Positions 1 through 16,236 of a stretch of 29,365 nucleotides of DNA are shown here, one piece after another. Positions within the stretch are counted from its first letter, which is position 1. Every line of letters starts with the position of its first letter. The DNA comes from a virus. The position numbers were made by a program, and so were the translations under genes. The notes beneath the pieces are model-generated. The model worked only from the letters and a program-made list of their open reading frames with translations. It was not told where the DNA came from and made no database searches. The stretch is taken from the UHGV virus genome UHGV-0335882. The stretch is one strand, 5' to 3'.

Positions 1-407
1 ATCTCAATCCCCGCCAGATGATAAGCATCCCGGAACAGCGTGTAACAGTCCGTCACCCCGTGCTCAAAGCACCGCCCGGTAAGATGCGGCACACAGCGGA
101 ATTTATGAATCTCACCCCGGCAGACCAGCCACCACGGCAAATCGCTCTGCACCTGCAGCCGCCTGTCAGCCTCACTCAGCCAGGGCAGACCACCGGGGTG
201 GCTGTGGACCAGCGCCACAATCTCACCCTGCATCTCTGCCCGCAGCCAGTCCTCCGGCGACATCCGGAAATACGCCTCCGGCTCACCGGAGATATTCACG
301 CAGGGAAAATATCTTTCCCCCTTCGGCGTTCTCACCACGAAGCCACACGACTCCGCTGGCGCACATCGCCGGGCGTGCGCCAGAATCGCTGATTCTGTCT
401 GTGTCAT
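1..407 (-). CDS. K: Tail assembly protein K, partial (N-terminal ~135 codons; 3' end lies beyond window start)
   Basis: Manual minus-strand translation from ATG at 407..405 gives MTQTESAILAHARRCAPAES..., matching the lambda gpK N-terminus as recalled. Absent from the ORF track because no stop lies in the window. Sits 5 nt downstream of the L stop, as in lambda. Confidence 0.8.
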   Translation of the reverse strand, partial: MTQTESAILAHARRCAPAESCGFVVRTPKGERYFPCVNISGEPEAYFRMSPEDWLRAEMQGEIVALVHSHPGGLPWLSEADRRLQVQSDLPWWLVCRGEIHKFRCVPHLTGRCFEHGVTDCYTLFRDAYHLAGIE

Positions 408-411
408 GGGA

Positions 412-1110
412 TTACTGCGAAAGTTTGTTAATGGAAAGGAAGCCGCCAAAGTTGCCGACGTTATTGCGGAACTTACAACCGCTCAGGCATTTGCTGCATT
501 TATCCTTCGTGATATCGGACGTTGGCTGGTCATATTCATCCGCGACAGCCGGACCGCTATAACCGCACTCGTCACCGCGATAGGTCCAGGTGCAGGTGTT
601 GGCCAGCATGATACGTCCCGGAAAAACAGCGCCATCCGTTTCCGTCGGCGTGGACAGTACAAAGGAGGCACTCACCGCGCTCAGTTCGCTGCACTGCTCA
701 ATGCGCCAGCGGCTGATCACCTCCTGCTCCGGATCGGCATAACTGTTTCCGTTGACGAAGTTCACCGCATCCAGAAAACGGGCGTAAACCTTACGCCGGA
801 CCACCGTTCCGCCGACCAGACTCTGCAGATCTTCCGCCATCCCGGTGACCATACCGTACAGGTTAGAAACCGTCAGCGTGGGGCGCGTACTGGTGCCTTT
901 GCCATTCAGTTCAAAACCGCTCCCCTGAATGGGATACGGCTGATACTGTCGCCCCTGCCAGGTGACCGGCTCACCTTTTTCGTTCTGCTCATTACAGAAA
1001 AAATAACGTTCTCCACCGACCTCTGTCAGGTCGATTTCCCAGAGCACCACGCTGGCCGACTGCTCCGCACGGGTGCATTCATTCAGTGTTTCCTGCCGGA
1101 TATCCTGCAT
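412..1110 (-). CDS. L: Minor tail protein L
   Basis: 232-aa ORF (MQDIRQETLNECTRAEQSASVVLWEIDL...) essentially identical to lambda gpL as recalled; lambda gene order M-L-K preserved. Confidence 0.95.
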   Translation of the reverse strand: MQDIRQETLNECTRAEQSASVVLWEIDLTEVGGERYFFCNEQNEKGEPVTWQGRQYQPYPIQGSGFELNGKGTSTRPTLTVSNLYGMVTGMAEDLQSLVGGTVVRRKVYARFLDAVNFVNGNSYADPEQEVISRWRIEQCSELSAVSASFVLSTPTETDGAVFPGRIMLANTCTWTYRGDECGYSGPAVADEYDQPTSDITKDKCSKCLSGCKFRNNVGNFGGFLSINKLSQ

Positions 1111-1439
1111 CAGTTCACCACCTGTTCAAACTCTGCGCTGAACTCAACACGCAGCATACTGACCCGCGACGACCATTTTGCGCAGGTCACCTTTATCTGC
1201 TGCCACTCATAAGGCGGCGTCCACAGAAAGGATTTCCAGCCCCCGTGCTCTTCCAGAAACGACTCCAGTACCGTGGCCTCCTCACGGGGGACAGAAAGCG
1301 TCACGCTGTACGTTTTCAGGTTGGCATTCAGCCCGGCAGGCGCTCGCTGAGAATAGCCATCACCAAAGCGCACCTTTCTTACAGAAGGGACCGAAGCCAC
1401 ATCCATACCGGGTTTCACTTTCCAGCGGAAGGTCTTCAT
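1110..1439 (-). CDS. M: Minor tail protein M
   Basis: 109-aa ORF (MKTFRWKVKPGMDVASVPSVRKVRFGDGY...) matches lambda gpM; overlaps the H stop by 4 nt as in lambda. Confidence 0.95.
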   Translation of the reverse strand: MKTFRWKVKPGMDVASVPSVRKVRFGDGYSQRAPAGLNANLKTYSVTLSVPREEATVLESFLEEHGGWKSFLWTPPYEWQQIKVTCAKWSSRVSMLRVEFSAEFEQVVN

Positions 1440-3997
1440 CGTCCACCTCCGGAGAACAGGCCACCATCACGCATCTGTGTCTGAATTTCATCACGGGCAC
1501 CCTTGCGGGCCATGTCATACACCGCCTTCAGAGCAGCCGGACCTATCTGCCCGTTCGTGCCGTCGTTGTTAATCACCACATGGTTATTCTGCTCAAACGT
1601 CCCGGACGCCTGCGACCGGCTGTCTGCCATGCTGCCCGGTGTACCGACATAACCGCCGGTGGCATAGCCGCGCATCAGCCGGTAAAGATTCCCCACGCCA
1701 ATCCGGCTGGTTGCCTCCTTCGTGAAGACAAACTCACCACGGTGAACAATCCCCGCTGGCTCATATTTGCCGCCGGTTCCCGTAAATCCTCCGGTTGCAA
1801 AATGGAATTTCGCCGCAGCGGCCTGAATGGCTGTACCGCCTGACGCGGATGCGCCGCCACCAACAGCCCCGCCAATGGCGCTGCCGATACTCCCGACAAT
1901 CCCCACCATTGCCTGCTTAAGCAGAATTTCTGTCATCATGGACAGCACGGAACGGGTGAAGCTGCGCCAGTTCTGCTCACTGCCGGTCAGCATCGCCGCC
2001 ATATTCTGTGCAATACCATCAAAGGTCTGCGTGGCTGCACTTTTTACCTGCGACATACTGTCCGTGGCGCTCTCTTCCCACTCACTCCAGCCGGACTTCA
2101 GGCCTGCCATCCAGTTCCCGCGAAGCTGGTCTTCAGCCGCCCAGGTCTTTTTCTGCTCTGACATGACGTTATTCAGCGCCAGCGGATTATCGCCATACTG
2201 TTCCTTCAGGCGCTGTTCCGTGGCTTCCCGTTCTGCCTGCCGGTCAGTCAGCCCCCGGCTTTTCGCATCAATGGCGGCCCGTTTTGCCCGTTGCTGCTGT
2301 GCGAATTTATCCGCCTGCTGCGCCAGCGCGTTCAGGCGCTCCTGATACGTAACCTTGTCGCCAAGTGCAGCCAGCTGGCGTTTGTACTCCAGCGTCTCAT
2401 CTTTATGCGCCAGCAGGGATTTCTCCTGTACAGACAGCTGGCGACGTTGCGCCGCCTCCTCCAGTACCGCGAACTGACTCTCCGCCTTCCACAAATCCCG
2501 GCGCTGCTGGCTGATTTTCTCATTTGCTCCGGCATGCTTCTCCAGCGTCCGGAGTTCAGCCTGAAGCGTCAGCAGGGCAGCATGAGCACTGTCTTCCTGA
2601 CGATCGCCCGCAGACACCTTCACGCCGGACTGCTTCGGCTTTTTCAGTGTCGTTTCATAGTCCTTTTTCGCTGCCGCCATCAGCGTGTTGTAATCTGCCT
2701 GCAGGATTTTTCCGTCTTTCAGGGCCTTATTCAGTTCTTCCTGACGGGCGGCATATTTCTCCAGCGGCGTCTGCAGCCGTTCGTAAGCCTTCTGCGCCTC
2801 TTCGGTATATTTCAGCCGTGACGCTTCGGTATCGCTCTGCTGCTGCGCATTTTTGTCCTGTTGACTCTGCTGTTCAGCCTTCTTTCGGGCGGCTTCAAGC
2901 GCAAGACGGGCCTTTTCACGATCATCCCAGTAACGCGCCCGCGCTTCATCGTTAACAAAATAATCATCCTTGCGCAGATTCCAGATGTCGTCTGCTTTCT
3001 TAAACGCAGCCTCTGCCTTAATCAGCATCTCCTGCGCGGTATCAGGACGACCAATATCCAGCACCGCATCCCACATGGATTTGAATGCCCGCGCAGTCCT
3101 GTCTGCCCAGGTCTCCAGCGTGCCCATGTTCTCTTTCAGGCGGCGGGTCTGGTCATCAAACCCTTTCGTTGCGGCCTCGTTCGCCGCCTGCAATGCCCCG
3201 GCTTCATCGCCGGAACGCTGCAACTGAGCAACATACGCAATCTGCTCCGCCGTCACGTTATGGAACTGGCGTGCCATCGCCGTCAGCCCCGACGTCGGGT
3301 CTGTGGTCAGCTTCCCGAAGGCTTCAGCGACCTTGTCCACCTCCACGCCGGATGCAGAGGAGAAACGCGCCACACTCTGGCTGATGGACGCAATCTGAGC
3401 CTCACCGCTTACCCCCGCCTTAACCAGTGCGCTGAGTGACTCGCTGGTCTGGTTAAACGTCAGCCCTGCCGCCTGCCCGGCTCTGGACAGGACCAGCATA
3501 CGATCTGCCGTCAGACCCGCCTGATTGCCGGAAAGGACCAGCGTTTTGTTGAAATCGGACAGGGTTGAGTTGCCCTGATACCAGGCATACGCCAGCGCAC
3601 CGGTCGCCACCGCCAGCGAGGTGGCCCCCACCATCGGCAGGGTGATCGCACCGGCAAGCCCCCTGAACATGGGGATCATCCCGCCGAAGGAGTCCTTCAC
3701 CTGCCCCCCCTGTTGCAGCAGGATCAGCCACGGACTTTGCCCGCCTGCAAGCTGCGTGGCCACGTCGGTGAACTGTGCAGGCAGCATACGCATGGCGGCT
3801 TTATACTGCCCGACGGAAATCCCCGCTTTCTGTGCAGCCAGCGCCTGTCGGCTCAGCGACTGTTCAACGACTGCCGCTGTTTTTTTCGCATCACTTTCCG
3901 TACCGGAAAAATGACGCCTGACTCTGGCCATCTGCTCGTCAAATCTGGCCGCATCCAGACTCAAATCAACGACCAGATCGCCTACCGGTTCAGCCAT
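1436..3997 (-). CDS. H: Tail tape measure protein H
   Basis: 853-aa ORF, same length as lambda gpH and near-identical along its length (MAEPVGDLVVDLSLDAARFDEQMARV... ...MRDGGLFSGGGR). Confidence 0.95.
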   Translation of the reverse strand: MAEPVGDLVVDLSLDAARFDEQMARVRRHFSGTESDAKKTAAVVEQSLSRQALAAQKAGISVGQYKAAMRMLPAQFTDVATQLAGGQSPWLILLQQGGQVKDSFGGMIPMFRGLAGAITLPMVGATSLAVATGALAYAWYQGNSTLSDFNKTLVLSGNQAGLTADRMLVLSRAGQAAGLTFNQTSESLSALVKAGVSGEAQIASISQSVARFSSASGVEVDKVAEAFGKLTTDPTSGLTAMARQFHNVTAEQIAYVAQLQRSGDEAGALQAANEAATKGFDDQTRRLKENMGTLETWADRTARAFKSMWDAVLDIGRPDTAQEMLIKAEAAFKKADDIWNLRKDDYFVNDEARARYWDDREKARLALEAARKKAEQQSQQDKNAQQQSDTEASRLKYTEEAQKAYERLQTPLEKYAARQEELNKALKDGKILQADYNTLMAAAKKDYETTLKKPKQSGVKVSAGDRQEDSAHAALLTLQAELRTLEKHAGANEKISQQRRDLWKAESQFAVLEEAAQRRQLSVQEKSLLAHKDETLEYKRQLAALGDKVTYQERLNALAQQADKFAQQQRAKRAAIDAKSRGLTDRQAEREATEQRLKEQYGDNPLALNNVMSEQKKTWAAEDQLRGNWMAGLKSGWSEWEESATDSMSQVKSAATQTFDGIAQNMAAMLTGSEQNWRSFTRSVLSMMTEILLKQAMVGIVGSIGSAIGGAVGGGASASGGTAIQAAAAKFHFATGGFTGTGGKYEPAGIVHRGEFVFTKEATSRIGVGNLYRLMRGYATGGYVGTPGSMADSRSQASGTFEQNNHVVINNDGTNGQIGPAALKAVYDMARKGARDEIQTQMRDGGLFSGGGR

Positions 3998-4828
3998 ACC
4001 GGACTCCTCCTGCGATCCCTTCTGATACTGTCATCAGCATTACGTCATCCTCCGTCATGTCCGCCACATCCGGGGAAGCGGGGATAACTTCATTCCCGTC
4101 CGGGCCAAAGCGGACACCTCCGGCAAGCCCTGCCGCTTTCTGCATCAGCACATCATCTTCAGGCTCTTCGTCAGCCTCGCGCCGGTTCAGCAGACTGAAA
4201 TCCAGCGGATGCATATCCGGATCGCTGAAAAACAGGCTGAGCACGGTGTACGTCAGCCCGGAAAAGTGCATATCCAGCAGAACATCATGAAAATAATGGG
4301 TACTGTAAAAGCGGTGCCAGTCGGCATACTCCGTGGATGACATCCCGGCAAGCATGGCACGCCAGTCGGGTCGCCCCATCTCACGCGCCAGTTTCAGGGC
4401 AAAACTCAGCTCACCGTCGAACACTTTCCCGCAGAAACAGGCTCTGCAGGCCCGGCGTCCTCTGCCTGTTCGGGGGCATTATTCACCACAAACTCATACA
4501 TACCGGACAGCCGGTACACCACGTTTTCAGCATGAGAAATTGCCTCTGTGGGCCAGGTGGTAAGCACTTCCTGCTCAATCTGTTTAACGGCTTCATTCAT
4601 GGACGGCATCTGCGTCTTCTTCGGATGGTTATGCCACAGGGACATCGCCACCAGAAACGCGCCGGTTCTGATGACGTCTTCCACAGTAACCTGCCGGTTG
4701 CTGTCGGATCCCGCCGGTTCTGCCTGCCGTTTCATCAGGGCAAGATGCTCAATACGCTGCAGGGCTGACAGTTCAGAAAGCGTGACGGTCACGCCGTTAT
4801 ATTCAAATGATTCGGTTTTCAGGAACAT
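3990..4828 (-). CDS. T: Tail assembly chaperone G-T fusion made by -1 programmed ribosomal frameshift (G frame 4828..4424, then T frame 4430..3990)
   Basis: T-frame ORF (FDGELSFALKLAREMGRPDW...) matches lambda gpT and overlaps the 3' end of G in the -1 frame. Slippery heptamer G GGA AAG is present at the overlap. Confidence 0.85.
4406..4828 (-). CDS. G: Tail assembly chaperone G
   Basis: 140-aa ORF (MFLKTESFEYNGVTVTLSELSALQRIEHLALMKRQ...) matches lambda gpG. Confidence 0.93.
   Translation of the reverse strand: MFLKTESFEYNGVTVTLSELSALQRIEHLALMKRQAEPAGSDSNRQVTVEDVIRTGAFLVAMSLWHNHPKKTQMPSMNEAVKQIEQEVLTTWPTEAISHAENVVYRLSGMYEFVVNNAPEQAEDAGPAEPVSAGKCSTVS
4424..4430 (-). other. -1 programmed frameshift slippery site G GGA AAG (G to G-T)
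   Basis: Minus-strand heptamer GGGAAAG, with GGA and AAG as zero-frame codons of G (…S A G K C S T V S stop). The -1 frame continues into the T ORF. Confidence 0.8.
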
Positions 4829-4843
4829 CGCTGACTCTCCGGA

Positions 4844-5584
4844 TTAACTGGCGGTGACGGTGATTTCTGCAACCGCAGCAAACTCACCATTACCGGATAC
4901 AACCGGAATGTTGACCTTGCCTGCAGCAACGCCGTTCACGGTGATGGTCATACCGCTGACCGACACGGTGGCTTTTGTTTTATCCGCAGACACCGCACGG
5001 AAGCTCTTGTCGGTTGCGCCCTCCGGCTGGAATGCCACGGTCAGCGTAGTGCTCTGCCCTTTCACTACGGAAGCACTGGCGGGTGTCACCGTCATGCCGG
5101 TTGTCGCCGTCACCGTGCTGCGATCTTCTGCCATCGACGGACGTCCCACGTTGGTGACTTTCACCGTGCGGGTGATCACTTCCTTCGCCGTCACCGCCTT
5201 ACCGATACTGCTGACCCAGCCGCGGAACACATCGACCGTGCCGTTCGGGAAGCGGATTTTATAGGCACGGGTATCCCCTTCATTAAACCACGCCAGCAGC
5301 GCCTGCTGCCCCTGCTCTCCGGGCATCCACGCCAGCGTGAAGCTGGTATCTCCGGCAGATTTCTGCCCCTGCCCGGTCGCAGTCCAGTCCGCATCTTCAT
5401 CATCGAGATAGCTGTCGTCATAGGACTCAGCGCTCAGTTCGCCGGGCGTCAGGTCTTTAACTTTAGCCAGACGCGACCAGTCAACGTCTGAAAGCGGGTT
5501 CGCATAAGGGTCACCGTTCCCCTTATAAACCCACAGGGTGGTCCCGGCCCCTTTCACCGGCATTACTGGATTTGGTACAGGCAT
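4844..5584 (-). CDS. V: Major tail protein V
   Basis: ORF matches lambda gpV from [22 protein letters not shown]... Start set at the internal ATG (5584) that corresponds to the lambda V start and has a GAGGA Shine-Dalgarno upstream; the track ORF extends 10 codons further 5'. Confidence 0.92.
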
Positions 5585-5591
5585 ATCGTCC

Positions 5592-5987
5592 TCACATTTC
5601 ATAGGTAATGACATAAGTCAGATCGGCTGAACTCCACAGGCCCGCATCATCGTCGCGCCGGTAGTCATAGCCACTGGCCACCATACTGGTGATCAAATCT
5701 GACAGTGCCGGGACATCGCTCATCACCGGATAAATCCGGGACTCCATCCACGAATCCAGCTCTGAATCCGGCACCTGAGCAGGCAGGAAAACTTCAATAT
5801 GCAGCTCCGCCTGCCAGGTATCGCTGTCCAGCTCTTCGCCCGTGTATTCAGCGCCGGTGAGATAAACGGCAACTGCCGGAAAATCCTCCTCATCAAAAAC
5901 AGCGGGGCGACCATCAAAAAGCGTCGCCCCGGTGTCATGTTTTTCCAGTGCATCCAGTACGGCTGCACGGAGTTCTGTATGTTTCAT
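5592..5987 (-). CDS. U: Tail terminator protein U
   Basis: 131-aa ORF ([36 protein letters not shown]...) matches lambda gpU. Confidence 0.93.
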
Positions 5988-6562
5988 CGCTTTATTACCA
6001 TCCTCAGTTGATGCTGCAGCGCATAGCCCAGCTCTTTCGGAAGACGTTCACGCCGTATCCGCTCAATATTCTGTTTAAACGCCGTGGTCAGCGGCACTGC
6101 CATCGGGATTTTCACCACATCAATGGGGTAACGGTTTTTCCCGGCCACACGCTGCATGACATGCCATCGGCCATTTTTCAGTTGCTGAATAAACGCGCCG
6201 GGAATACGACGGTTTCCCACCACAAGCACGCTGTCGCCACCTTTCAGGGATGAACGCTGCCCCTTTTTACGACGCCTGCGTCGGGACAGGACAACCCGCG
6301 CGTTACCCAGCCTGATTACGGGCAAATCCCCCCGGTTAACCTTGATTCTGGCCTGCGGATTTTTGACCGTGGCCCTTTTCAGCCTGGCCCTTTCCTTTAC
6401 CAGTTTCCGGCGTACCTTTGTCTCACGGGCAACCTGTGACGCCGACTGCGATATCGCGGATGAAGCAACGCGGTTAATGGCCATTGCGGCGGCACCGGGC
6501 ACCGCCGTTCTGCTGATACGGCTGAGGTTTTCAACGGCCTGCTCAAGACCTTTTATGGCCAT
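5984..6562 (-). CDS. Z: Tail completion protein Z
   Basis: 192-aa ORF (MAIKGLEQAVENLSRISRTAVPGAAAMAINRV...) matches lambda gpZ; 4-nt overlap with U. Confidence 0.93.
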   Translation of the reverse strand: MAIKGLEQAVENLSRISRTAVPGAAAMAINRVASSAISQSASQVARETKVRRKLVKERARLKRATVKNPQARIKVNRGDLPVIRLGNARVVLSRRRRRKKGQRSSLKGGDSVLVVGNRRIPGAFIQQLKNGRWHVMQRVAGKNRYPIDVVKIPMAVPLTTAFKQNIERIRRERLPKELGYALQHQLRMVIKR

Positions 6563-6573
6563 ACATCCCCCCT

Positions 6574-6927
6574 TCAGCGACGACGGTTAACGGCAGGCGG
6601 CACGCCACGCCCAAGCCAGAGATGACAGCTTCCGCCATCATCCGTCGAAATCCGGTCTATCCAGAAGTTTTCCTCACCGATGGTCAGCGTGTCGCCGCGC
6701 CGCAGCTGCCGCACATCATCAGTCCGGACAAACAGGGACGGGCTGGAGCCTTCAACGCGCACGCCCTGTCCGGCATAGCTGATATTTTCAGGGTCATCAA
6801 AAACACCACGTATTACTGCGCCGGACTGCTCACCGGATGTCATGGTGGCTGACGTTCCCATGTACCCGCGTATCGTTTCATCGGCGCGGACAATGGCAGC
6901 ATCGAACAGGTTATCGAAATCAGCCAC
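6574..6927 (-). CDS. FII: Head-tail joining protein FII
   Basis: 117-aa ORF (MADFDNLFDAAIVRADETIRGYMGTSATMTSGEQ...) matches lambda gpFII. Confidence 0.93.
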   Translation of the reverse strand: MADFDNLFDAAIVRADETIRGYMGTSATMTSGEQSGAVIRGVFDDPENISYAGQGVRVEGSSPSLFVRTDDVRQLRRGDTLTIGEENFWIDRISTDDGGSCHLWLGRGVPPAVNRRR

Positions 6928-6938
6928 AGCGCCTCCCG

Positions 6939-7337
6939 TTATTGCATTCTGGCCAGGCCACGTTCTGTCATTTCGGCTGCCACACCGGCAGAGACACGGA
7001 ACGCCGTTCCCGGAAGCACAAATGCCACAGGTTCATCCCGCGTGGCGTGAAGTGCATCAGTATGCAGCGTCACCAGTGCCACGACCGTGACCAGTTCAGA
7101 CGTATCCAGAATCACGGTATCCGGCTGCGCTGATCCCACCTCATTTTCATGTCCGGTCAGCACATTTTCCCGGCTGAGAGGGGTGTCCTGACCGGCAGTT
7201 TCATCCGTGTCATCAAGCTCCTCTTCCAGCTCTGCCACACGGAGCGCCAGTTCTTCTTTCGTCCCCGTCAGGCTGACATCACGGTTCAGTTGTTCACCCA
7301 GCGAGCGGAGACGGGCAATCAGTTCATCTTTCGTCAT
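6939..7337 (-). CDS. FI: DNA packaging/head completion protein FI
   Basis: ORF matches lambda gpFI from MTKDELIARLRSLGEQLNRDVSLTGTKEELALRVAEL... Start set at the internal ATG (7337) preceded by GGAGG; the track ORF extends 13 codons 5'. Confidence 0.9.
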   Translation of the reverse strand: MTKDELIARLRSLGEQLNRDVSLTGTKEELALRVAELEEELDDTDETAGQDTPLSRENVLTGHENEVGSAQPDTVILDTSELVTVVALVTLHTDALHATRDEPVAFVLPGTAFRVSAGVAAEMTERGLARMQ

Positions 7338-7378
7338 GGACTCCTCCACAGAGAAACAATGGCCCCGAAGGGCCATGA

Positions 7379-8404
7379 TTACGCCAGTTGTACGGACACG
7401 AACTCATCAGGGTCAGCCAGCAGCATCAGCGGTGCTGACTGAATCATGGTGAACTCACGCGCCGGATCGCCGGTGGTCACCCAGTTTTTCGGGTAACGGG
7501 CAGAGGCGTTAATGCCTTCGAGCTGTGCGTCCGCATCCTGAATGCAGCCATAGGTGCGCAGACCGCGTGCCTGAGTGTTCCCCAGCACCATCGTGTTGTC
7601 CGGCAGGAAGTTCTTTTTGACGCCGTTTTCCACGTACTGTCCGGAATACACGACGATGGCCACATCGCCATACATCCCCTTATAGGACACCGCTTTACCC
7701 AGGTCTTTCACCGCTGTCTCCAGCTCGGAATTAGAACCACGACGGGTATCCAGCTTCTCCTTGACGGCTTTGAAGGAACGGAACAGCGCCCAGCCTTTCG
7801 GATCGAACACGATGATATTCACCACACCGCTGGCGTTCAGCGCGTAGGCTTCGATATCGTCGGTCGGGTCATACGTGGACTTGTCACGCTTGCTCCACTC
7901 CGTGCCGCCGGACTGCGTGATGTTATTCTCCTCACTGCGGCCCATATCCACCTCAACCGGATCGAAGGCTTCACCGGTCATGGTGTATTTGCCCTTAAGC
8001 ACGGCAGAAACTGCCTGCATCTCTTCGACCTGAGCAATGGCCAGCTCTTCGTCACGCATGTTCTGCATGATGATGCGACGGCGGCGGTAAGCCGGGTCCA
8101 CCAGATTCTGCGGATCTTCATCCGGCAGGCGACGCAGGGTCATCTGCGGATTCACTTCATGCTTCGGCTTGACATATCCCGGCGTAAATTCAGAGGTGGA
8201 GCCGCCACGGGAACGGATAACCTCACCGGAAACAATCGGCGAAACGTACAGCGCCATGTTTACCAGTCCCGGAATTTGTGAGAGATAGACTTTCTCCGTG
8301 GTGAAGGGATAGCTCTCACGGAAAAAGAGACGCAGAAACAGCGGATCAAACTTAAATTTCTGCTCATTTGCCGCCAGCAGCTGGGCGGTTGTGTACATCG
8401 ACAT
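7379..8404 (-). CDS. E: Major capsid protein E
   Basis: ORF matches lambda gpE (341 aa) from MSMYTTAQLLAANEQKFKFDPLFLRLFFRESYPF... Start set at the internal ATG (8404) corresponding to the lambda E start. Confidence 0.93.
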   Translation of the reverse strand: MSMYTTAQLLAANEQKFKFDPLFLRLFFRESYPFTTEKVYLSQIPGLVNMALYVSPIVSGEVIRSRGGSTSEFTPGYVKPKHEVNPQMTLRRLPDEDPQNLVDPAYRRRRIIMQNMRDEELAIAQVEEMQAVSAVLKGKYTMTGEAFDPVEVDMGRSEENNITQSGGTEWSKRDKSTYDPTDDIEAYALNASGVVNIIVFDPKGWALFRSFKAVKEKLDTRRGSNSELETAVKDLGKAVSYKGMYGDVAIVVYSGQYVENGVKKNFLPDNTMVLGNTQARGLRTYGCIQDADAQLEGINASARYPKNWVTTGDPAREFTMIQSAPLMLLADPDEFVSVQLA

Positions 8405-8413
8405 AAAAAAATC

Positions 8414-8438
8414 CCGTAAAAAAAGCCGCACAGGCGGC
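8414..8438 (-). terminator. Intrinsic-terminator-like hairpin between D and E (GCCGCCTGTGCGGC followed by T7 on the minus strand)
   Basis: GC-rich inverted repeat with a U-run on the coding (minus) strand in the D-E gap. Lies inside the late operon, so it would normally be read through under antitermination. Confidence 0.4.
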
Positions 8439-8459
8439 CTTTAGTGATGAAGGGTAAAG

Positions 8460-8792
8460 TTAAACGATGCTGATTGCCGTTCCGGCAAACGCGGTCCGTT
8501 TTTTCGTCTCGTCGCTGGCAGCCTCCGGCCAGAGCACATCCTCATAACGGAACGTGCCGGACTTGTAGAACGTCAGCGTGGTGCTGGTCTGGTCAGCAGC
8601 AACCGCAAGAATGCCAACGGCAGCACCGTCGGTGGTGCCATCCCACGCAACCAGCTTACGGCTGGAGGTGTCCAGCATCAGCGGGGTCATTGCAGGCGCT
8701 TTCGCACTCAATCCGCCGGGCGCGGTTGCGGTATGAGCCGGGTCACTGTTGCCCAGCGGCTGGTAATGGGTAAAGGTTTCTTTGCTCGTCAT
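8460..8792 (-). CDS. D: Capsid decoration protein D
   Basis: ORF matches lambda gpD ([40 protein letters not shown]...); start at the ATG corresponding to the lambda D start. Confidence 0.93.
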
Positions 8793-8801
8793 AAACATCC
8801 C

Positions 8802-9407
8802 TTACACTGGTGTGTTCAGCAAATCGTTAACGGCATCAGATGCCAGGTTACCTGCAGCCAGCGGTGCCGGTGCCCCCTGCATCAGACGATCCAGCGCAGT
8901 GTCACTGCGCGCCTGTGCACTCTGTGGTGCAACTGCCAGAATGCGGCGGGCCGTTTCCACGGTCATACCAGGGGTTTCGGCCAGCACGCGTGCCTGTTCT
9001 TCGCGTCCGTGAGCTTCCTCACAGTTGAGGATCCCCATAATGCGACTGTTTTCTGCCGCAACCGCTGCGGTGATCTGCGCGTTCACGTCCGGCTGCGCAG
9101 CGCTGGCGTTCTCGCCCTCCGTCGCTGGCACCACGCCAGTAACGTCAGCCTGCGAAGCAGTGGCTGAAACAGTTGTTGATTGAGTCTCTTTGGTCATTCG
9201 CCCTCCTGAGAGACGGGATTTACGTGCATCCAGTGCATCACGCATGACGGTGATCGCATCGGTACTGTTAACAAGTTCATCAGCCAGTCCGGCATCAATG
9301 GCCTCCTGACCGCTGTACACTGCAGCCTCGGTATCCAGCACAGCCTGCACGGACAGGCCGGTATATGCCGACACCTTCTGTGCAAACATCCGGCGGGTTG
9401 CATCCAT
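8802..9407 (-). CDS. Nu3: Scaffolding protein Nu3 (in-frame internal start within C)
   Basis: Internal ATG at 9407 gives a 201-aa product (MDATRRMFAQKVSAYTGLSVQ... to the C stop), the same length and arrangement as lambda Nu3 nested in the C frame. Confidence 0.75.
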   Translation of the reverse strand: MDATRRMFAQKVSAYTGLSVQAVLDTEAAVYSGQEAIDAGLADELVNSTDAITVMRDALDARKSRLSGGRMTKETQSTTVSATASQADVTGVVPATEGENASAAQPDVNAQITAAVAAENSRIMGILNCEEAHGREEQARVLAETPGMTVETARRILAVAPQSAQARSDTALDRLMQGAPAPLAAGNLASDAVNDLLNTPV

Positions 9408-10101
9408 CCGGGACTGCAGTGTTTCCCGGACATCATCCGGTAGATGGCTGTAGGGGTTGCCATCCACCTTATGGCTGCCGCTGTAAATCAGCGTGATTTC
9501 CACGCCCTGTTTCTCCAGCGCAGCACCGTAATTACTGTGAGCCATCATGACGCCGATGGAGCCTGTCCGGGCGGTCTGCGTGACCAGACGTCGGGAGGCG
9601 GCGCTGGCAAGCAACTGACCTGCACTGCAGTTCATGTCGTTGGCCAGCGCCCATACCGGCTTTATGTCACGCACACGGGCGATGATGTCAGCGCAGTCAA
9701 ATGCCCCTGCCACCATCCCGCCTGGCGTATCCATATCGAGCAGAATGCCGTCCACCATCGGGTCGCTGGCAGCCTGTTGCAGACGGGCGATAATGCCGTT
9801 GTAACCGGTCATCCCCGAATACGGCTGCAGCGCTCGCGTCCGACTGACCAGCGTGCCGGACACCGGCAGCACGGCGATGCCGTTCATGACCTGATAACTG
9901 CGGGCCTGTCGTGGTCCGTCATCATCAACGGATAACGCCAGCGCCGCGGGTGCCTCTCCGGCAGTCAGGCTGTCGCCGGATACCGCATCCGTCAGGCGGC
10001 TGATCCCAAGCTGGCCTGCAAGCGCACAAAAGAAAACCCGCGCATAGGCGGGTTCAAGCATCAGCGGCTCATTAAAGGCCATACTGGCAATATGCGGGAG
10101 A

Positions 10102-10121
<20 letters not shown>
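8802..10121 (-). CDS. C: Head protease/scaffold-processing protein C (GTG start)
   Basis: ORF matches lambda gpC (439 aa) from TAELRNLPHIASMAFNEPLMLEPAYARVFF... The position equivalent to the lambda start is GTG (10121..10119), preceded by AGGAGG, giving the same 20-nt B/C overlap as lambda. Confidence 0.85.
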
Positions 10122-13802
<3,681 letters not shown>

Positions 13803-13828
<26 letters not shown>

Positions 13829-14348
13829 TCAGCAACCCCGGTATCAGTTCATCCAGCGCGGCTGCTTTGTTCATGGCTTTGATGATATCCCGTTTCAGGA
13901 AATCAACATGTCGGTTTTCCAGTTCCGGAAAACGCCGCTGCACCGACAGGGGGATCCCGTCGAGAATACTGGCAATTTCACCTGCGATCCGCGACAGCAC
14001 GAAAGTACAGAATGCGGTTTCCACCACTTCAGCGGAGTCTCTGGCATTTTTCAGCTCCTGTGCGTCGGCCTGCGCACGCGTAAGTCGATGGCGTTCGTAC
14101 TCAATAGTCCCTGGCTGGAGATCTGTCTCGCTGGCCTGTCGCAGTTCTTCAACCTCCCGGCGCAGCTTTTCGTTCTCAATTTCAGCATCCCTTTCGGCAT
14201 ACCATTTTATGACGTCGGCAGAGTCATAAAGCACCTCATTACCCTTCCCACCGCCTCGCAGAACGGGCATTCCCTGCTCCTGCCAGTTCTGAATAGTACG
14301 GATACTCGCGCCGAAAATGTCAGCCAGCTGCTTTTTGTTGACTTCCAT
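13803..14348 (-). CDS. Nu1: Terminase small subunit Nu1
   Basis: 181-aa ORF (MEVNKKQLADIFGASIRTIQNWQEQGMPVLRGGGKGNEVLYDSADVIKWY...) matches lambda Nu1; overlaps the A start as in lambda. Confidence 0.95.
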
Positions 14349-14537: not shown

Positions 14538-14685
14538 CGTAACCTGTTGGATCGACGGAAAGGACCCGAAAACGAGAATAATTATCACTTACAGCAAGAA
14601 TCGAATCTGATCTATTATGGTGCTTGCTATTATGTGCCGGCACAAGTGCGTCGTTTACCGTCATTTCACACAGAGGCATCATCAA

Positions 14686-14937
14686 ATGAAAATCAGAAAT
14701 ATTCTCGCTATCTCCCTTGCGACATCATCCTTCAGTTGCCTGGCATTTAAATCCTCGCCCAATGTGCTACCAGGACCAACGAATCAACTAACTGCGGTAG
14801 AAAGTAAAATTATCGGACATTTTTATGCCCCACACAGTACATTACCCGGAACAACCATCACAGGGACATGTGACGCCTCCCCCGTCCCGGGATGCACCTG
14901 TCCGTTTTGTACTATGCTGCGTAGCCAAAACCGATAA
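14686..14937 (+). CDS. Small secreted protein of unknown function (83 aa, Cys-containing)
   Basis: ATG at 14686 with GAGG 9 nt upstream. N-terminus MKIRNILAISLATSSFSCLA has signal-peptide character; mature part contains a TGTCDASPVPGCTCPFC cysteine cluster. The track ORF (from 14617) extends further 5' without a ribosome-binding site. No recognised family. Confidence 0.5.
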   Translation: MKIRNILAISLATSSFSCLAFKSSPNVLPGPTNQLTAVESKIIGHFYAPHSTLPGTTITGTCDASPVPGCTCPFCTMLRSQNR

Positions 14938-14998
14938 CATCCGCATTTACCTGGTATTCCATGATGAGTTCACGCAGCGACTGATAGAGGAAGGAAAG

Positions 14999-15178
14999 AT
15001 GGTTAGTAAAAGCAAGGCGCATTGCCGCCGCATGCTGCAGGCATTGCAACAGACGAGAGCAGGTATTTTTGACCAGTTGGAAAACTGCCAGCATACTTTG
15101 CCCGAGTATATCGCCATCTCATCGGAAACCAGTGCAACTCTTATTCATCGGGTTCCACCAGAGAAAAAGAAGAAATGA
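14999..15178 (+). CDS. Small hypothetical protein (59 aa, basic C-terminus)
   Basis: ATG at 14999 preceded by a strong GAGGAAGGA Shine-Dalgarno; in frame with track ORF 14825..15178 but starting after the stop of the upstream gene. Function unknown. Confidence 0.35.
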   Translation: MVSKSKAHCRRMLQALQQTRAGIFDQLENCQHTLPEYIAISSETSATLIHRVPPEKKKK

Positions 15179-15184
15179 ACAGTG

Positions 15185-15209
15185 AGGCGTTGTGTGGCAT
15201 ACAACGCCT
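15185..15209. terminator. Hairpin between convergent genes (AGGCGTTGT / loop 7 nt / ACAACGCCT)
   Basis: 9-bp perfect inverted repeat located between the plus-strand ORF ending at 15178 and the minus-strand lipoprotein gene ending at 15301; followed by TCTTCC on the plus strand. Confidence 0.4.
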
Positions 15210-15300
15210 TCTTCCATCATTCCTCGTCAGCCATGACAAAAATATAACCGCTGGCTCTTTCATTTTTCTCCTGCTTCCAGCCCCTCTCTACCTGGAAGCA

Positions 15301-15627
15301 TCAAGGACGTGACGGCGTAAAGATAAATTGTCTCTTCACTCCCTGACAGGGGCGATTCTTTTCAAATCGCCATTTCGCCATGGCCTTCACCACTTCATCA
15401 CGAAACAAATTATGAGGCTCTGAGCGGAGAAAAACGATCCGTGTCACAGTCCCATCAGCACCAATATCGAACTTAACCTCAACCAGCCCCTTGATATAAT
15501 TTGCTGCAGCATATTCCGGATATCGTGGATACACCGTCACTAATTGCCGGGGCTCATCAGCTTTTTGCTGCGAGCATCCCACTGCCAGGACAGATAACAG
15601 AAAAAGTAGTAAAAGGCGTCTTTTCAT
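15301..15627 (-). CDS. Lipoprotein with TonB C-terminal-like domain (108 aa)
   Basis: Start at internal ATG (15627): MKRRLLLLFLLSVLAVGCSQQ is a lipoprotein signal with lipobox LAVGC. Remainder aligns with the E. coli TonB C-terminal domain as recalled (GLVEVKFDIGADGTV...LFRDEVVKAMAKWRFEKNRP vs GQVKVKFDVTPDGRV...MFEREVKNAMRRWRYEPGKP). Confidence 0.8.
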   Translation of the reverse strand: MKRRLLLLFLLSVLAVGCSQQKADEPRQLVTVYPRYPEYAAANYIKGLVEVKFDIGADGTVTRIVFLRSEPHNLFRDEVVKAMAKWRFEKNRPCQGVKRQFIFTPSRP

Positions 15628-16092
15628 TTTTATTCCTACGGGTCTTATTCTGACAATATATCCTGTGTTCCAGACTGCCACATCACCACATCCTGTGCCA
15701 TTATCTGACTCACATTACATACATCGCATCGGGATACAGTAGTAGCACTTTCTGTAATACAGCTTCCTGTTTCTTCCACCATCGCACCGGGATAAACCCG
15801 CGAATCATTAACGCGGTAAAAACCCGGTGTGCATCGTTTTTAATTATTCCCGCACACTCACGCAGAAGGAATTCCCCGTCGGGCTACGGTCATGGTTAAT
15901 GCGGGAATACGGCGACGATACAGCGCAGCTAAAAGGGTAATGGACGGATAGACCGGTTTATTTCATTCCACAGGATTCTGAGTGTCCCCAACTTCCTCCA
16001 ATAGTCTGAGCCCACCTGTGTAGTTTTAATTTTCATCAATCCATTTAACTATCGTTTAATTGTTGTCACATAGGATTCTGCCGTTTTTAACA

Positions 16093-16236
16093 ATGCAGGA
16101 TAATAAGATGAAAAAAATGTTGTTTTCTGCCGCTCTGAGTCTGTTGTCGGCATTCTGGCAATGCAATTTGGATAAAGCGGGGATTAAAAAGATAGAGGCG
16201 AGCCGGTCAGGTAGAAATGAATCAGGCTCAAAGTGA
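16093..16236 (+). pseudogene. 5' stump of a bor/iss-family lipoprotein gene (first ~15 codons conserved, then unrelated sequence to a stop)
   Basis: Translation MQDNKMKKMLFSAAL... matches the N-terminus of Iss/Bor-family proteins as recalled. The lipobox (LITGC) and the rest of the protein are missing; the frame runs into unrelated sequence and stops after 47 codons. Position and orientation match where bor sits relative to cos in lambda. Confidence 0.6.

What the first reader, a model, noticed from the sequence alone, without database searches (positions are those of the whole stretch)
15301..15627. Prophage-encoded lipoprotein consisting of a free-standing TonB C-terminal-like domain
The ORF encodes a lipoprotein signal peptide (MKRRLLLLFLLSVLAVGC, Ser at +2, so probably outer-membrane sorted) followed by ~85 aa that align with the C-terminal domain of TonB (VKFD…DG.V…LFRDEV..AM..WRFE motif block). 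It lacks TonB's membrane anchor and proline-rich spacer. It lies in the accessory island next to cos, a classic moron location. Hypothesis: a lipid-anchored TonB C-domain decoy could bind TonB boxes of outer-membrane transporters such as FhuA or BtuB and block TonB-dependent phage or colicin entry (superinfection exclusion), or modulate siderophore uptake.
Basis: partly seen in the sequence, partly recalled or inferred. Interest (0 to 1): 0.7.

Follow-up and report, generated by a model that had tools for sequence, protein, structure and literature searches.

The report
Prophage lipoprotein made of TonB's C-domain
A small prophage gene found in roughly a quarter of complete E. coli genomes encodes just the transporter-docking end of the TonB energy protein, predicted to be tethered to the outer membrane by a lipid, and it most likely jams TonB-dependent uptake, although nobody appears to have tested this.

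Summary
Window 15301-15627 (minus strand) encodes a 108-aa protein with a lipoprotein signal peptide (lipobox LAVGC, Ser at +2). Residues 24-103 align without gaps to E. coli TonB 150-230. Evidence: Pfam TonB_C E=7e-13, PDB TonB chains E~1e-14, and an AlphaFold model 0.9-1.0 Å from TonB in its FhuA and BtuB complexes. All seven functionally important TonB C-domain residues are kept.

The gene is not a decayed fragment: dN/dS is 0.12 against a 72%-identical allele. It is already annotated ("TonB C-terminal domain protein" in phage 21, "TonB family protein" in RefSeq). It lies in a 1.2-kb cassette beside cosQ, present in about 1,220 of 5,426 complete E. coli genomes.

It is not a recent capture of host tonB. 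It belongs to a family of ~110-aa lipoproteins that are chromosomal in Raoultella and Erwinia and prophage-borne in Klebsiella. Most of these carry a Fur box just upstream; the E. coli phage copies do not.

The decoy idea is plausible, since engineered periplasmic TonB fragments inhibit TonB-dependent uptake. It remains untested, and Fur co-regulation leaves an iron-uptake role open. I found no functional study.

The parts
15301..15627 (-). CDS of the 108-aa TonB_C lipoprotein (type A allele; identical to phage 21 CPT_21_73 and RefSeq WP_000830178.1)
15574..15627 (-). Codons 1-18: lipoprotein signal peptide MKRRLLLLFLLSVLAVGC, with lipobox LAVG|C and Cys18 as the predicted lipidated residue. 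The next residue is Ser, which predicts Lol sorting to the outer membrane.
   Evidence: Lipobox rule check. The lipobox is kept in alleles and homologues of 35-85% identity. dN/dS of this segment is 0.14.
15529..15573 (-). Codons 19-33: short tether SQQKADEPRQLVTVY between the lipid anchor and the globular domain. It corresponds to TonB ~146-160, including the substituted Q160 position (Y33).
15319..15528 (-). Codons 34-103: core of the TonB C-terminal domain. It starts at the YP motif (Y36-P37, equivalent to TonB Y163-P164) and runs through beta1, beta2 and helix 2 to beta3 (res 94-103, equivalent to the TonB-box-pairing strand of TonB).
15634..15637 (-). Ribosome-binding site AGGA, 6 nt upstream of the ATG
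   Evidence: Sequence; annotated as the RBS in phage 21
15647..15655 (-). Candidate extended -10 element TGTCAGAAT (TGTTAGAAT in type B). It is the only conserved block within an otherwise diverged upstream stretch. This is an inferred promoter, not a demonstrated one.
   Evidence: no hit under the stricter consensus scan
15185..15300 (-). 3' region with two stable hairpins (15272-15300 and 15185-15209). The second could be a bidirectional terminator between the convergent genes. Neither has a clean U-tract on the minus strand.
   Evidence: MFE -47.3 kcal/mol, z=-3.0; sequences
14569..15788 (.). 1.2-kb accessory ('moron') cassette, absent from phage 4A7, which has 95 bp in its place. It travels as a unit at 99-100% identity among lambdoid prophages with different flanks.
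14686..14937 (+). Second cargo gene of the cassette, convergent with the TonB_C gene. It encodes an 83-aa exported Cys-rich protein (signal peptide with lipobox-like SFSC; four Cys, three invariant and C62 nearly so). It is not annotated in phage 21 or RefSeq.
   Evidence: full-length homologues of 54-78% identity, nearly all 82-84 aa, in Salmonella, Citrobacter and Klebsiella
14573..14587 (.). Fur-box-like palindrome CGAGAATAATTATCA (12/14 of the 7-1-7 consensus). The overlapping 19-mer at 14568-14586 scores 15/19, the best match in the whole window. It lies about 100 nt upstream of the 83-aa gene, at the cassette edge next to cosQ.
   Evidence: the same position holds a perfect 14/14 box in the diverged copy L177
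14561..14567 (-). cosQ subsite, by coordinate transfer from the phage 21 record

Best explanation
[quoted passage not shown] After a tether of about 8-15 residues, the protein is nothing but a folded TonB C-terminal domain.

That position is where TonB-dependent transporters (FhuA, BtuB, FepA, Cir and others) expose their TonB boxes. The protein keeps the beta3 edge strand and the residues TonB needs to recognise transporters. It most likely binds TonB boxes by the same beta-strand pairing as TonB.

It has no transmembrane helix and no Pro-rich spacer, so it cannot be energised by ExbB-ExbD. The expected result is an unproductive complex that competes with the scarce real TonB. This would lower TonB-dependent entry of phages (T1 and phi80 type), group B colicins and microcins, at some cost in siderophore and B12 uptake.

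Shown here: the ORF, the lipobox, domain homology, fold prediction, purifying selection, the cassette structure and the distribution. Inferred: lipidation, outer-membrane location, TonB-box binding, antagonism and the exclusion phenotype.
For: - Domain and fold: Pfam, NCBIfam and PDB matches. The high-confidence model lies 0.9-1.0 Å from TonB as bound to FhuA and BtuB.
- Key residues: the seven TonB CTD residues whose substitution impairs function (Y163, F180, G186, F202, W213, Y215, F230; PMC3005593) appear as Y36, F53, G59, F75, W86, F88 and F103 in both alleles.
- Lipobox: conserved across homologues of 35-85% identity, never with Asp at +2.
- Selection: dN/dS is 0.12 between type A and type B, signal peptide included.
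- Precedent for antagonism: overexpressed periplasmic TonB domain inhibits TBDT iron import (PMC9841981 citing Howard et al. 2001). My own recollection of Howard et al. is that phi80 and colicin M sensitivity also fell.
- Precedent for the site of action: T5 Llp is a small outer-membrane lipoprotein that binds the periplasmic face of FhuA to exclude phage (PMC9586334).
- Genomic setting: the gene lies in a mobile accessory cassette next to iss/bor, between the lysis genes and cos or terminase, in three diverged phage lineages.
Against: - No binding or phenotype data exist, and I found no paper.
- The E. coli copies lie on the late-gene strand without a consensus promoter, so expression in lysogens is unproven.
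- The positions equivalent to TonB R158, Q160 and R166 are T/K, Y/L and Y. My recollection is that these contact TonB boxes or plugs.
- Non-phage relatives sit behind strong Fur boxes, so they would be made together with TonB and its transporters. That is odd for a pure antagonist.
- A strong constitutive TonB block would be costly, yet the gene is in about 22% of complete genomes, including the siderophore-rich strain Nissle 1917.
- PADLOC has no model matching it.
Confidence: 0.45

Rival explanations
1. It is an iron-uptake accessory rather than an antagonist. An outer-membrane-tethered TonB C-domain could act as a scaffold or regulator of the TonB system. It might hold periplasmic binding proteins (FhuD and BtuF have been reported to bind TonB; my recollection) or TonB itself near the transporters. 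It might instead cap idle TonB boxes so that scarce TonB is directed to loaded transporters. On this reading the prophage copy is an iron-acquisition moron.
For: - Fur-box palindromes lie 14-35 nt upstream of the start codon in at least five independent clades of the family. Examples: TGAGAATTATTATCA 13/14, TGATAATCTTTATCA 13/14 (17/19), TGATAATGTTGATCA 12/14. The chance of 12/14 or better in a random 125-nt window is 0.009.
- Many members are chromosomal with no phage context.
- Phage 21 also carries sitBCD iron/manganese transporter genes.
- The same cassette holds a Fur-box-preceded gene.
Against: - No energy coupling is possible, and no such scaffold role is established for any TonB_C protein.
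- The E. coli phage alleles lack a convincing Fur box: type A 10/19, type B 13/19.
- Isolated periplasmic TonB domains are inhibitory when overproduced.
Confidence: 0.2
2. It has a lytic-cycle function. The gene would be transcribed with the late operon and act during or after lysis. One possibility is blocking TonB-energised irreversible adsorption, so that progeny or competitors are not wasted on the dying cell. Another is assisting envelope disruption as a spanin-like or peptidoglycan/outer-membrane tether.
For: - The gene has the same strand as, and sits just downstream of, the holin-endolysin-spanin genes in E. coli type A, E. coli type B and the Klebsiella prophages.
- No consensus promoter of its own was found.
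- PHROG 1267, which it matches at 5e-43, is labelled 'Rz-like spanin'.
Against: - Phage 21 has its own annotated i-spanin and o-spanin and JLK-2012 its own Rz.
- The protein is a globular TonB_C domain, not a short Pro-rich o-spanin, and the gene is not nested in or next to Rz.
- Phage 4A7, which has the same conserved segments and its own holin, endolysin and spanin genes, lacks the gene.
- Chromosomal relatives have no lysis genes nearby.
- The PHROG label is most likely positional mis-annotation.
Confidence: 0.12
3. It is a non-functional leftover of a tonB gene picked up by a phage, as some database names imply ('TonB fragment', 'partial tonB-like', 'truncated').
For: Annotations in ev017, Perceval and some E. 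coli records use such names. The protein lacks two thirds of TonB.
Against: - dN/dS is 0.12 over 108 gapless codons between alleles with dS of about 1.5.
- A complete, conserved lipoprotein signal peptide has replaced the missing part.
- The full-length architecture is conserved across genera.
- It clusters apart from enterobacterial TonB.
Confidence: 0.02

Closest known systems
TonB (E. coli P02929), C-terminal domain residues ~150-239
   Same: - Same fold: model to 2gsk_B and 2grx_C, TM 0.92, rmsd 0.9-1.0 Å.
- 38% identity with no gaps.
- The YP motif and all seven functionally important residues are kept.
- It should be able to pair its beta3 strand with a TonB box.
   Different: - No N-terminal transmembrane helix (His20), no Pro-rich spacer and no link to ExbB-ExbD.
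- Predicted anchoring to the outer rather than the inner membrane, through a lipid.
- The R158, Q160 and R166 positions are substituted.
- It ends 5 residues after beta3.
- It scores far below the NCBIfam TonB equivalog cutoffs: 69 bits against 315.
Engineered periplasmic TonB fragments (Howard, Herrmann, Stratilo and Braun 2001, J Bacteriol 183:5885; seen here only through PMC9841981)
   Same: Both are an uncoupled TonB C-domain placed in the periplasm. The engineered version is reported to inhibit TBDT-mediated iron import. This is the functional model for what the natural protein would do.
   Different: Those fragments were artificial, soluble, signal-peptide fusions that were overproduced. 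This one is a natural gene with a lipid anchor, its own diverged sequence, and unknown expression level.
Phage superinfection-exclusion lipoproteins Llp (T5) and Cor (phi80, T1, N15, HK022)
   Same: They are small phage-encoded outer-membrane lipoproteins that act from the periplasmic side on a TonB-dependent transporter (PMC9586334).
   Different: - No sequence or fold relation; only TonB_C is hit in Pfam.
- Llp binds a non-native plug conformation of FhuA, not the TonB box.
- Their genes lie next to the receptor-binding protein gene, whereas this one lies between the lysis genes and cos.
- They are specific to one receptor, whereas a TonB mimic would be generic.
Family of ~110-aa TonB_C lipoproteins of Enterobacterales (Raoultella, Klebsiella, Erwinia and metagenomic relatives); uncharacterised
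   Same: - Same architecture: lipobox, short tether and TonB_C.
- 35-50% identity and shared motifs (YPxYA, SEPxHLFD, KWRFE..KP).
- Sister clade in the tree.
- The Klebsiella prophage members sit in the same post-lysis position.
   Different: Many members are chromosomal and have a strong Fur box at the promoter. The E. coli phage alleles lack a convincing one.
Bor / Iss (lambda-type serum-resistance lipoprotein), the neighbouring moron
   Same: It is a small outer-membrane lipoprotein encoded in the same Rz-to-cos accessory region of lambdoid prophages.
   Different: It is an unrelated protein (PF06291) on the opposite strand, and is known to be expressed in lysogens.

Membership tests
TonB_C domain family (Pfam PF03544 / TIGR01352) | Profile match above the curated threshold | tested here: met
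   PF03544: 49.2 bits against a cutoff of 24.6, E=7.3e-13. TIGR01352: 47.4 bits against 27.1.
TonB_C domain family (Pfam PF03544 / TIGR01352) | alpha/beta fold of the TonB C-terminal domain (short helix, beta1-beta2 hairpin, helix 2, beta3) | tested here: met
   AF2 model with pLDDT 96-98 over the domain. The 11 best Foldseek hits, all at E<1e-5, are TonB, FusB or TonB-complex chains; rmsd to 2gsk_B and 2grx_C is 0.9-1.0 Å.
TonB_C domain family (Pfam PF03544 / TIGR01352) | Binding of a TonB box by beta-strand addition | not testable with these tools
   The fold and key residues are kept. No co-folding or binding assay was available.
TonB energy-transducer protein (NCBIfam PRK10819 equivalogs) | N-terminal transmembrane signal anchor with the conserved His, which couples to ExbB-ExbD | tested here: not met
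   The N-terminus is a cleavable lipoprotein signal peptide. The total length is 108 aa. Equivalog scores are 45-69 bits against cutoffs of 265-448.
TonB energy-transducer protein (NCBIfam PRK10819 equivalogs) | Proline-rich periplasm-spanning spacer | tested here: not met
   Only about 8-15 residues (SQQKADEPRQLVTVY) lie between Cys18 and the domain.
Bacterial lipoprotein (signal peptidase II substrate) | Positively charged n-region, hydrophobic h-region and a lipobox [LVI][ASTVI][GAS]C, with the Cys at position 15-35 | tested here: met
   MKRR-LLLLFLLSVLAVG-C18 passes the PROSITE-style rule, as do 18 of 20 short homologues that carry a Cys at this site. The pattern recurs in 32 of 35 metagenomic and genomic loci where a start codon could be assigned.
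Bacterial lipoprotein (signal peptidase II substrate) | Actual lipidation and outer-membrane sorting (no Asp at +2) | not testable with these tools
   The +2 residue is Ser, and S, T or A in all relatives. Localisation follows only from the E. coli +2 rule (established knowledge).
o-spanin / Rz1 (the label of PHROG 1267) | Small Pro-rich outer-membrane lipoprotein whose gene is embedded in or adjoins the i-spanin gene and which is needed for the last step of lysis | tested here: not met
   The match to phrog_1267 is strong (5e-43). However, the protein is a globular TonB_C domain. Phage 21 has separate i- and o-spanin genes 0.8 kb away across bor. Phage 4A7, which has its own lysis genes, lacks the gene.
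Cor / Llp superinfection-exclusion lipoproteins | Sequence or fold relation to Cor/Llp, and a gene next to the receptor-binding tail protein gene | tested here: not met
   No Pfam, PHROG or PADLOC hit other than TonB_C and phrog_1267. The gene lies between the lysis genes and cos.
Moron (independently acquired accessory unit in a lambdoid late region) | Presence/absence polymorphism between otherwise homologous phages, and lower GC than the flanks | tested here: met
   The 1,220-bp insert replaces 95 bp of phage 4A7. The cassette is 99-100% identical among varied flanks. GC is 44-48% against 54% in the flanks.
Moron (independently acquired accessory unit in a lambdoid late region) | Own promoter and terminator giving expression from the repressed prophage | tested here: inconclusive
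   No consensus promoter was found on the minus strand. There is only a conserved extended -10-like TGTyAGAAT. Hairpins lie downstream but without a clean U-tract.

The most novel reading that the evidence does not exclude
These ~110-aa outer-membrane lipoproteins would be the first natural anti-TonB proteins. They are Fur-regulated in Raoultella and Klebsiella and prophage-borne in about 30% of complete E. coli genomes (types A and B). On this reading they are generic, receptor-independent blockers. By occupying TonB boxes from the periplasmic side, they would give simultaneous tolerance to all TonB-dependent phages, group B colicins and siderophore-microcins. Phages would have spread one version as a lysogenic-conversion or exclusion gene. 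This would be a new class of exclusion factor, acting on the energy-coupling step rather than on a single receptor.
Probability: 0.3. Interest if true: 0.8.

Novelty: new variant of a known kind. Interest (0 to 1): 0.55.

Why it matters
TonB-dependent transporters are the entry route for many coliphages, for colicins and microcins, and for siderophore-antibiotic conjugates such as cefiderocol-type drugs. They also supply iron during infection.

A natural, mobile protein that mimics the docking end of TonB could change sensitivity to all of these at once. It is carried by about 1,220 (type A) plus 414 (type B) of 5,426 complete E. coli genomes, including ST131 strains, STEC and the probiotic Nissle 1917. 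This would matter for phage therapy, for bacteriocin-based competition in the gut and for Trojan-horse antibiotics.

It would also provide a natural tool for probing TonB-transporter recognition. Even if the decoy idea is wrong, a Fur-controlled family of outer-membrane-anchored TonB C-domains is an undescribed component of enterobacterial iron physiology.

Tried and rejected
- Literature: ten full-text searches found no study of this protein. Terms included the accession WP_000830178, 'TonB-like membrane protein', 'TonB family protein' with prophage, phage 21 with TonB, and TonB C-terminal with prophage. Howard et al. 2001 is not held, so it is cited second-hand.
- First AlphaFold run: with six near-identical sequences it gave pLDDT 61 and weak Foldseek hits. 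It was superseded by the 18-sequence run.
- Fur box upstream of the type A gene: none found, best 10/19. I therefore do not claim iron regulation of the window's own copy.
- Consensus promoter scan: nothing on the minus strand.
- Rfam: no RNA family anywhere in the window.
- PADLOC: no defence-system model matches.
- The 'Rz-like spanin' label of PHROG 1267 was considered and rejected (see the membership test).
- The idea that the 83-aa Cys-rich neighbour is a dedicated partner of the TonB_C protein, such as a toxin/immunity or microcin pair, was rejected. Its homologues occur without any TonB_C gene in other prophages, islands and a plasmid.
- The 45-aa ORF annotated upstream in phage 21 (15645-15782) is not conserved between types A and B and has no family. 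It is probably not a gene.
- The genome-contig scan with the 13-sequence alignment failed for lack of a conserved stretch. It was rerun with seven sequences.
Full report
**1. The observation**

The ORF exists as described, on the minus strand: ATG at 15627, stop ending at 15301, 108 aa. An in-frame GTG at 15681 would add 18 residues. However, the ATG is preceded by AGGA at 15634-15637 and is the start used in the phage 21 and RefSeq annotations.

The N-terminus MKRRLLLLFLLSVLAVGC satisfies the lipoprotein rule: a charged n-region, no charged residue in the six positions before the lipobox, the lipobox LAVG-C, and Cys at position 18. The residue after Cys is Ser. [quoted passage not shown]

The remainder matches TonB_C:
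- Pfam PF03544, E=7.3e-13, 49 bits against a cutoff of 24.6.
- TIGR01352, E=1.8e-12.
- E. coli TonB C-domain chains in the PDB at E~1e-14, with residues 24-103 aligned without a gap to TonB 150-230. Identity is 38% over 86 positions.

A first structure prediction from six close sequences was poor (pLDDT 61). With 18 diverse family members the model reached pLDDT 88 overall and 96-98 across residues 30-100. Its best matches in the PDB are E. coli TonB C-domains. They include the chains bound to BtuB (2gsk_B, TM 0.92, rmsd 1.0 Å) and FhuA (2grx_C, TM 0.92, rmsd 0.9 Å).

**2. Prior knowledge**

The DNA is 100% identical to phage 21 (OL657228, gene CPT_21_73, 'TonB C-terminal domain protein'). It is also identical to phages ev017, PhiR47_2 and others, and 99.9% identical to Perceval.

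In RefSeq the protein is WP_000830178.1, 'TonB family protein', for example in the icd-integrated prophage of Nissle 1917. Other records call it 'TonB fragment' or 'partial tonB-like membrane protein'.

The domain call is therefore already in the databases. Ten full-text searches found no paper on its function.

**3. Functional gene or fragment**

A second allele (type B, in Stx1a phages and phage JLK-2012) is 72% identical in protein and 73% in DNA over 108 gapless codons. dN is 0.18 and dS about 1.5, so dN/dS is 0.12. The signal peptide taken alone gives 0.14.

The lipobox is kept although the h-region has diverged (LLLLFLLSVLAVGC against LPLIILLSSLVMGC). This rules out a decaying tonB remnant.

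**4. Genomic setting**

Window 1-14348 carries lambda-type tail, head and terminase genes on the minus strand. Nu1 lies at 13803-14348. By coordinate transfer from phage 21, cosQ is at 14561-14567.

Compared with phage 4A7, which lacks the gene, the window has 1,220 bp (14569-15788) in place of 95 bp, flanked by conserved segments on both sides. Among 80 viral contigs this cassette stays 99-100% identical. Its flanks vary: lambda-type or 21-type small terminase, or different upstream sequence.

It is present in 1,221-1,223 of 5,426 complete E. coli genomes. Type B is present in 414. GC is 44-48% against 54% in the neighbouring terminase genes. This is the signature of a moron.

In three diverged lineages the gene lies after the holin-endolysin-spanin genes and before cos or terminase, on the late-gene strand. 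The lineages are type A with lambda/21-type terminase, type B with HNH plus a different terminase set (separate small and large subunits), and Klebsiella prophages.

A strict sigma-70 scan finds no promoter on that strand. The only conserved element in the otherwise diverged 130 bp upstream is TGTCAGAAT (type A) or TGTTAGAAT (type B). It resembles an extended -10 and lies about 20 nt before the RBS. Two stable hairpins follow the stop codon. Whether the gene is expressed in lysogens is therefore open.

**5. Origin and family**

An exhaustive profile search returned many short (~107-133 aa) proteins matching over their full length, signal peptide included. Most have a lipobox. A few instead have an ordinary signal peptide (P0098, P0100, P0153).

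In a neighbour-joining tree of the domain, the two E. coli phage alleles group with these small lipoproteins. They do not group with enterobacterial TonB. Identity is 44-53% to the lipoproteins against about 40% to TonB.

Contexts of the relatives:
- In Raoultella ornithinolytica, R. planticola and Erwinia, the loci are ordinary chromosomal neighbourhoods with lacZ, araBA and GGDEF/EAL genes.
- In Klebsiella, the gene follows a prophage holin-lysozyme pair.

So the phage did not recently clip its host's tonB. It carries a member of an older family of free-standing TonB_C lipoproteins.

**6. Fur boxes**

Immediately upstream (14-35 nt) of the start codon, the family members carry Fur-box palindromes:

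| Locus or clade | Sequence | Score |
|---|---|---|
| R. ornithinolytica clade | TGAGAATTATTATCA | 13/14 of the 7-1-7 consensus; unique best site in a 14-kb locus |
| L117 | TGATAATCTTTATCA | 13/14, and 17/19 of the 19-bp consensus |
| L096 | TGATAATGTTGATCA | 12/14 |
| L114 | TGATAAGCGTTATCA | 12/14 |
| Klebsiella prophages | GATAATGTTGATTATCATT | 14/19 |

In random 125-nt windows of the same loci, 12/14 or better occurs with frequency 0.009 and 13/14 or better with 0.0035. At least five independent clades are involved, so the family is very probably Fur-regulated, like tonB itself.

The E. coli phage alleles are the exception. Type B has a weak 13/19 half-palindrome. Type A lacks the corresponding 13 nt and scores 10/19.

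**7. Mechanism**

TonB acts by pairing its C-domain beta3 strand with the TonB box of a transporter. This is established knowledge from the 2GSK and 2GRX structures, which are also the best structural matches here.

Cys-scanning found seven functionally important residues in the C-domain: Y163, F180, G186, F202, W213, Y215 and F230 (PMC3005593). All seven are retained in both alleles: six are identical and Y215 is replaced by Phe. Several of these residues are poorly conserved across bacteria in general but conserved among enterics. The phage protein therefore looks tuned to enterobacterial transporters.

The tether from the lipid to the domain is only about 8-15 residues. If the protein is outer-membrane anchored, the domain would sit where TonB boxes emerge. 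With no transmembrane helix and no spacer it cannot transmit energy.

[quoted passage not shown] 2001). T5 Llp shows that small phage lipoproteins can disable FhuA from its periplasmic face (PMC9586334).

The best-supported mechanism is therefore a lipid-anchored, uncoupled TonB mimic that competes with TonB for TonB boxes. I give this 0.45.

Points against it:
- Residues at TonB positions 158, 160 and 166 are changed.
- Expression in lysogens is unproven.
- Fur co-regulation in the wider family suits a role within iron uptake at least as well. I give that rival 0.2.
- A late, lysis-linked role gets 0.12. It is suggested only by gene position and by the PHROG 1267 label 'Rz-like spanin'. That label fails the spanin criteria.

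**8. Comparison and novelty**

As a domain, the protein is a member of TonB_C. It is not a TonB protein, because the anchor and spacer were tested and are absent. It is unrelated to Cor/Llp and to Bor.

The architecture and annotation are known. The family-level picture appears undescribed in the literature I could search. That picture comprises a lipoprotein clade separate from TonB, Fur boxes, chromosomal plus prophage carriage, a mobile 1.2-kb cassette and its prevalence. I file the finding as a new variant of a known kind, with interest 0.55. The hypothesis is attractive, directly testable and medically relevant, but it still rests on inference.

**9. Other observations**

- The cassette's second gene (14686-14937, plus strand, 83 aa) is unannotated in phage 21 and RefSeq but clearly real. 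Full-length homologues of 54-78% identity, nearly all 82-84 aa, with three invariant Cys and a fourth nearly invariant, occur in Salmonella, Citrobacter and Klebsiella. It is preceded by the best Fur-box match in the window (12/14, 15/19). A diverged E. coli prophage copy has a perfect 14/14 box at the same place. It occurs elsewhere without the TonB_C gene, so the two are independent cargo genes.
- Homology to phage-21-type prophages stops at 16137, inside iss, after 15 codons. From 16138 the window is 100% identical to a different, HK97-like prophage of ST131 strains. That prophage lies about 0.9 Mb away in those genomes. None of the 5,426 complete genomes has this junction.

Noticed in passing
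window 14686-14937 (+), with Fur-like box at 14573-14587: An unannotated 83-aa gene lies convergent with the TonB_C gene. It encodes an exported Cys-rich protein with a lipobox-like SFSC at Cys18; Cys70, 72 and 75 are invariant and Cys62 nearly so. Full-length homologues of 54-78% identity occur in Salmonella, Citrobacter, Klebsiella and other E. coli prophages, next to bor, omptin, a Fur-family regulator with CobW, or icd. A strong Fur box lies about 100 nt upstream (12/14 here, 14/14 in L177). It may be an iron- or metal-regulated moron of unknown function.
   Followed up: partly
window 16093-16137 (+) and the junction at 16137/16138: The iss/bor gene is cut after 15 codons. From 16138 the sequence switches to an HK97-like prophage (HNH, P27-type small terminase, large terminase, portal, protease, capsid on the + strand). 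That prophage lies about 0.9 Mb away in ST131 genomes such as strain 4/0 and EC958. There is no shared sequence at the joint, and none of 5,426 complete E. coli genomes contains it. It is either a rearrangement between two prophages or an assembly chimera.
   Followed up: partly
L003 6971-6985, L004 6735-6749, L096-L123 (14-35 nt upstream of the homologues' ATG): Fur-box palindromes (up to 13/14 and 17/19) sit directly upstream of the TonB_C lipoprotein genes in at least five independent clades, including the Klebsiella prophage copies. They are missing or degenerate in E. coli phage types A and B. Type A lacks 13 nt that form half of the weak palindrome present in type B.
   Followed up: yes
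L003 7738-8301; L008 232-858; L097 and L099 1-436: A DUF1440 / YagU-like inner-membrane protein gene recurs near the TonB_C lipoprotein gene in two unrelated settings. It is immediately downstream in the Raoultella ornithinolytica chromosome, and just upstream of the lysis cassette in the Klebsiella prophages that carry the lipoprotein gene after it. This may indicate a functional link.
   Followed up: no
window 14912-15094 (-) and 15002-15178 (+): Two overlapping small ORFs on opposite strands each have their own PHROG family (phrog_3744 and phrog_4843). These probably arise from alternative gene calls on the same DNA. RefSeq annotates the minus-strand one (WP_000881610.1). The region is 99-100% identical in all copies, so which one is real could not be decided.
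   Followed up: partly
window 15301-15627 (-) against PHROG 1267: PHROG 1267, which this protein matches at 5e-43, is labelled 'Rz-like spanin' in the lysis category. The protein is a TonB_C domain, and the phages carrying it have separate spanins. The label looks like a positional mis-annotation that would propagate through phage annotation pipelines.
   Followed up: yes
P0141 (152 aa; from the representative search): This is a separate lipoprotein (ALAGC lipobox) whose C-domain is 66% identical to E. coli TonB and groups with true TonB proteins. It has a longer linker of about 50 residues. It suggests that lipid-anchored TonB C-domains arose more than once. Some relatives (P0098, P0100, P0153) have an ordinary signal peptide and would be soluble periplasmic TonB_C proteins.
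   Followed up: no
L090 (phage 21, OL657228 21967-24502): Phage 21 carries sitB, sitC and sitD (iron/manganese ABC transporter) as cargo next to its tail-fibre genes. This phage therefore holds several iron-related accessory genes. That part of the genome lies outside the window.
   Followed up: no
window 15645-15782 (-): The 45-aa ORF annotated in phage 21 as CPT_21_72, just upstream of the TonB_C gene, is not conserved between the type A and type B loci and has no family match. It is probably not a gene.
   Followed up: yes
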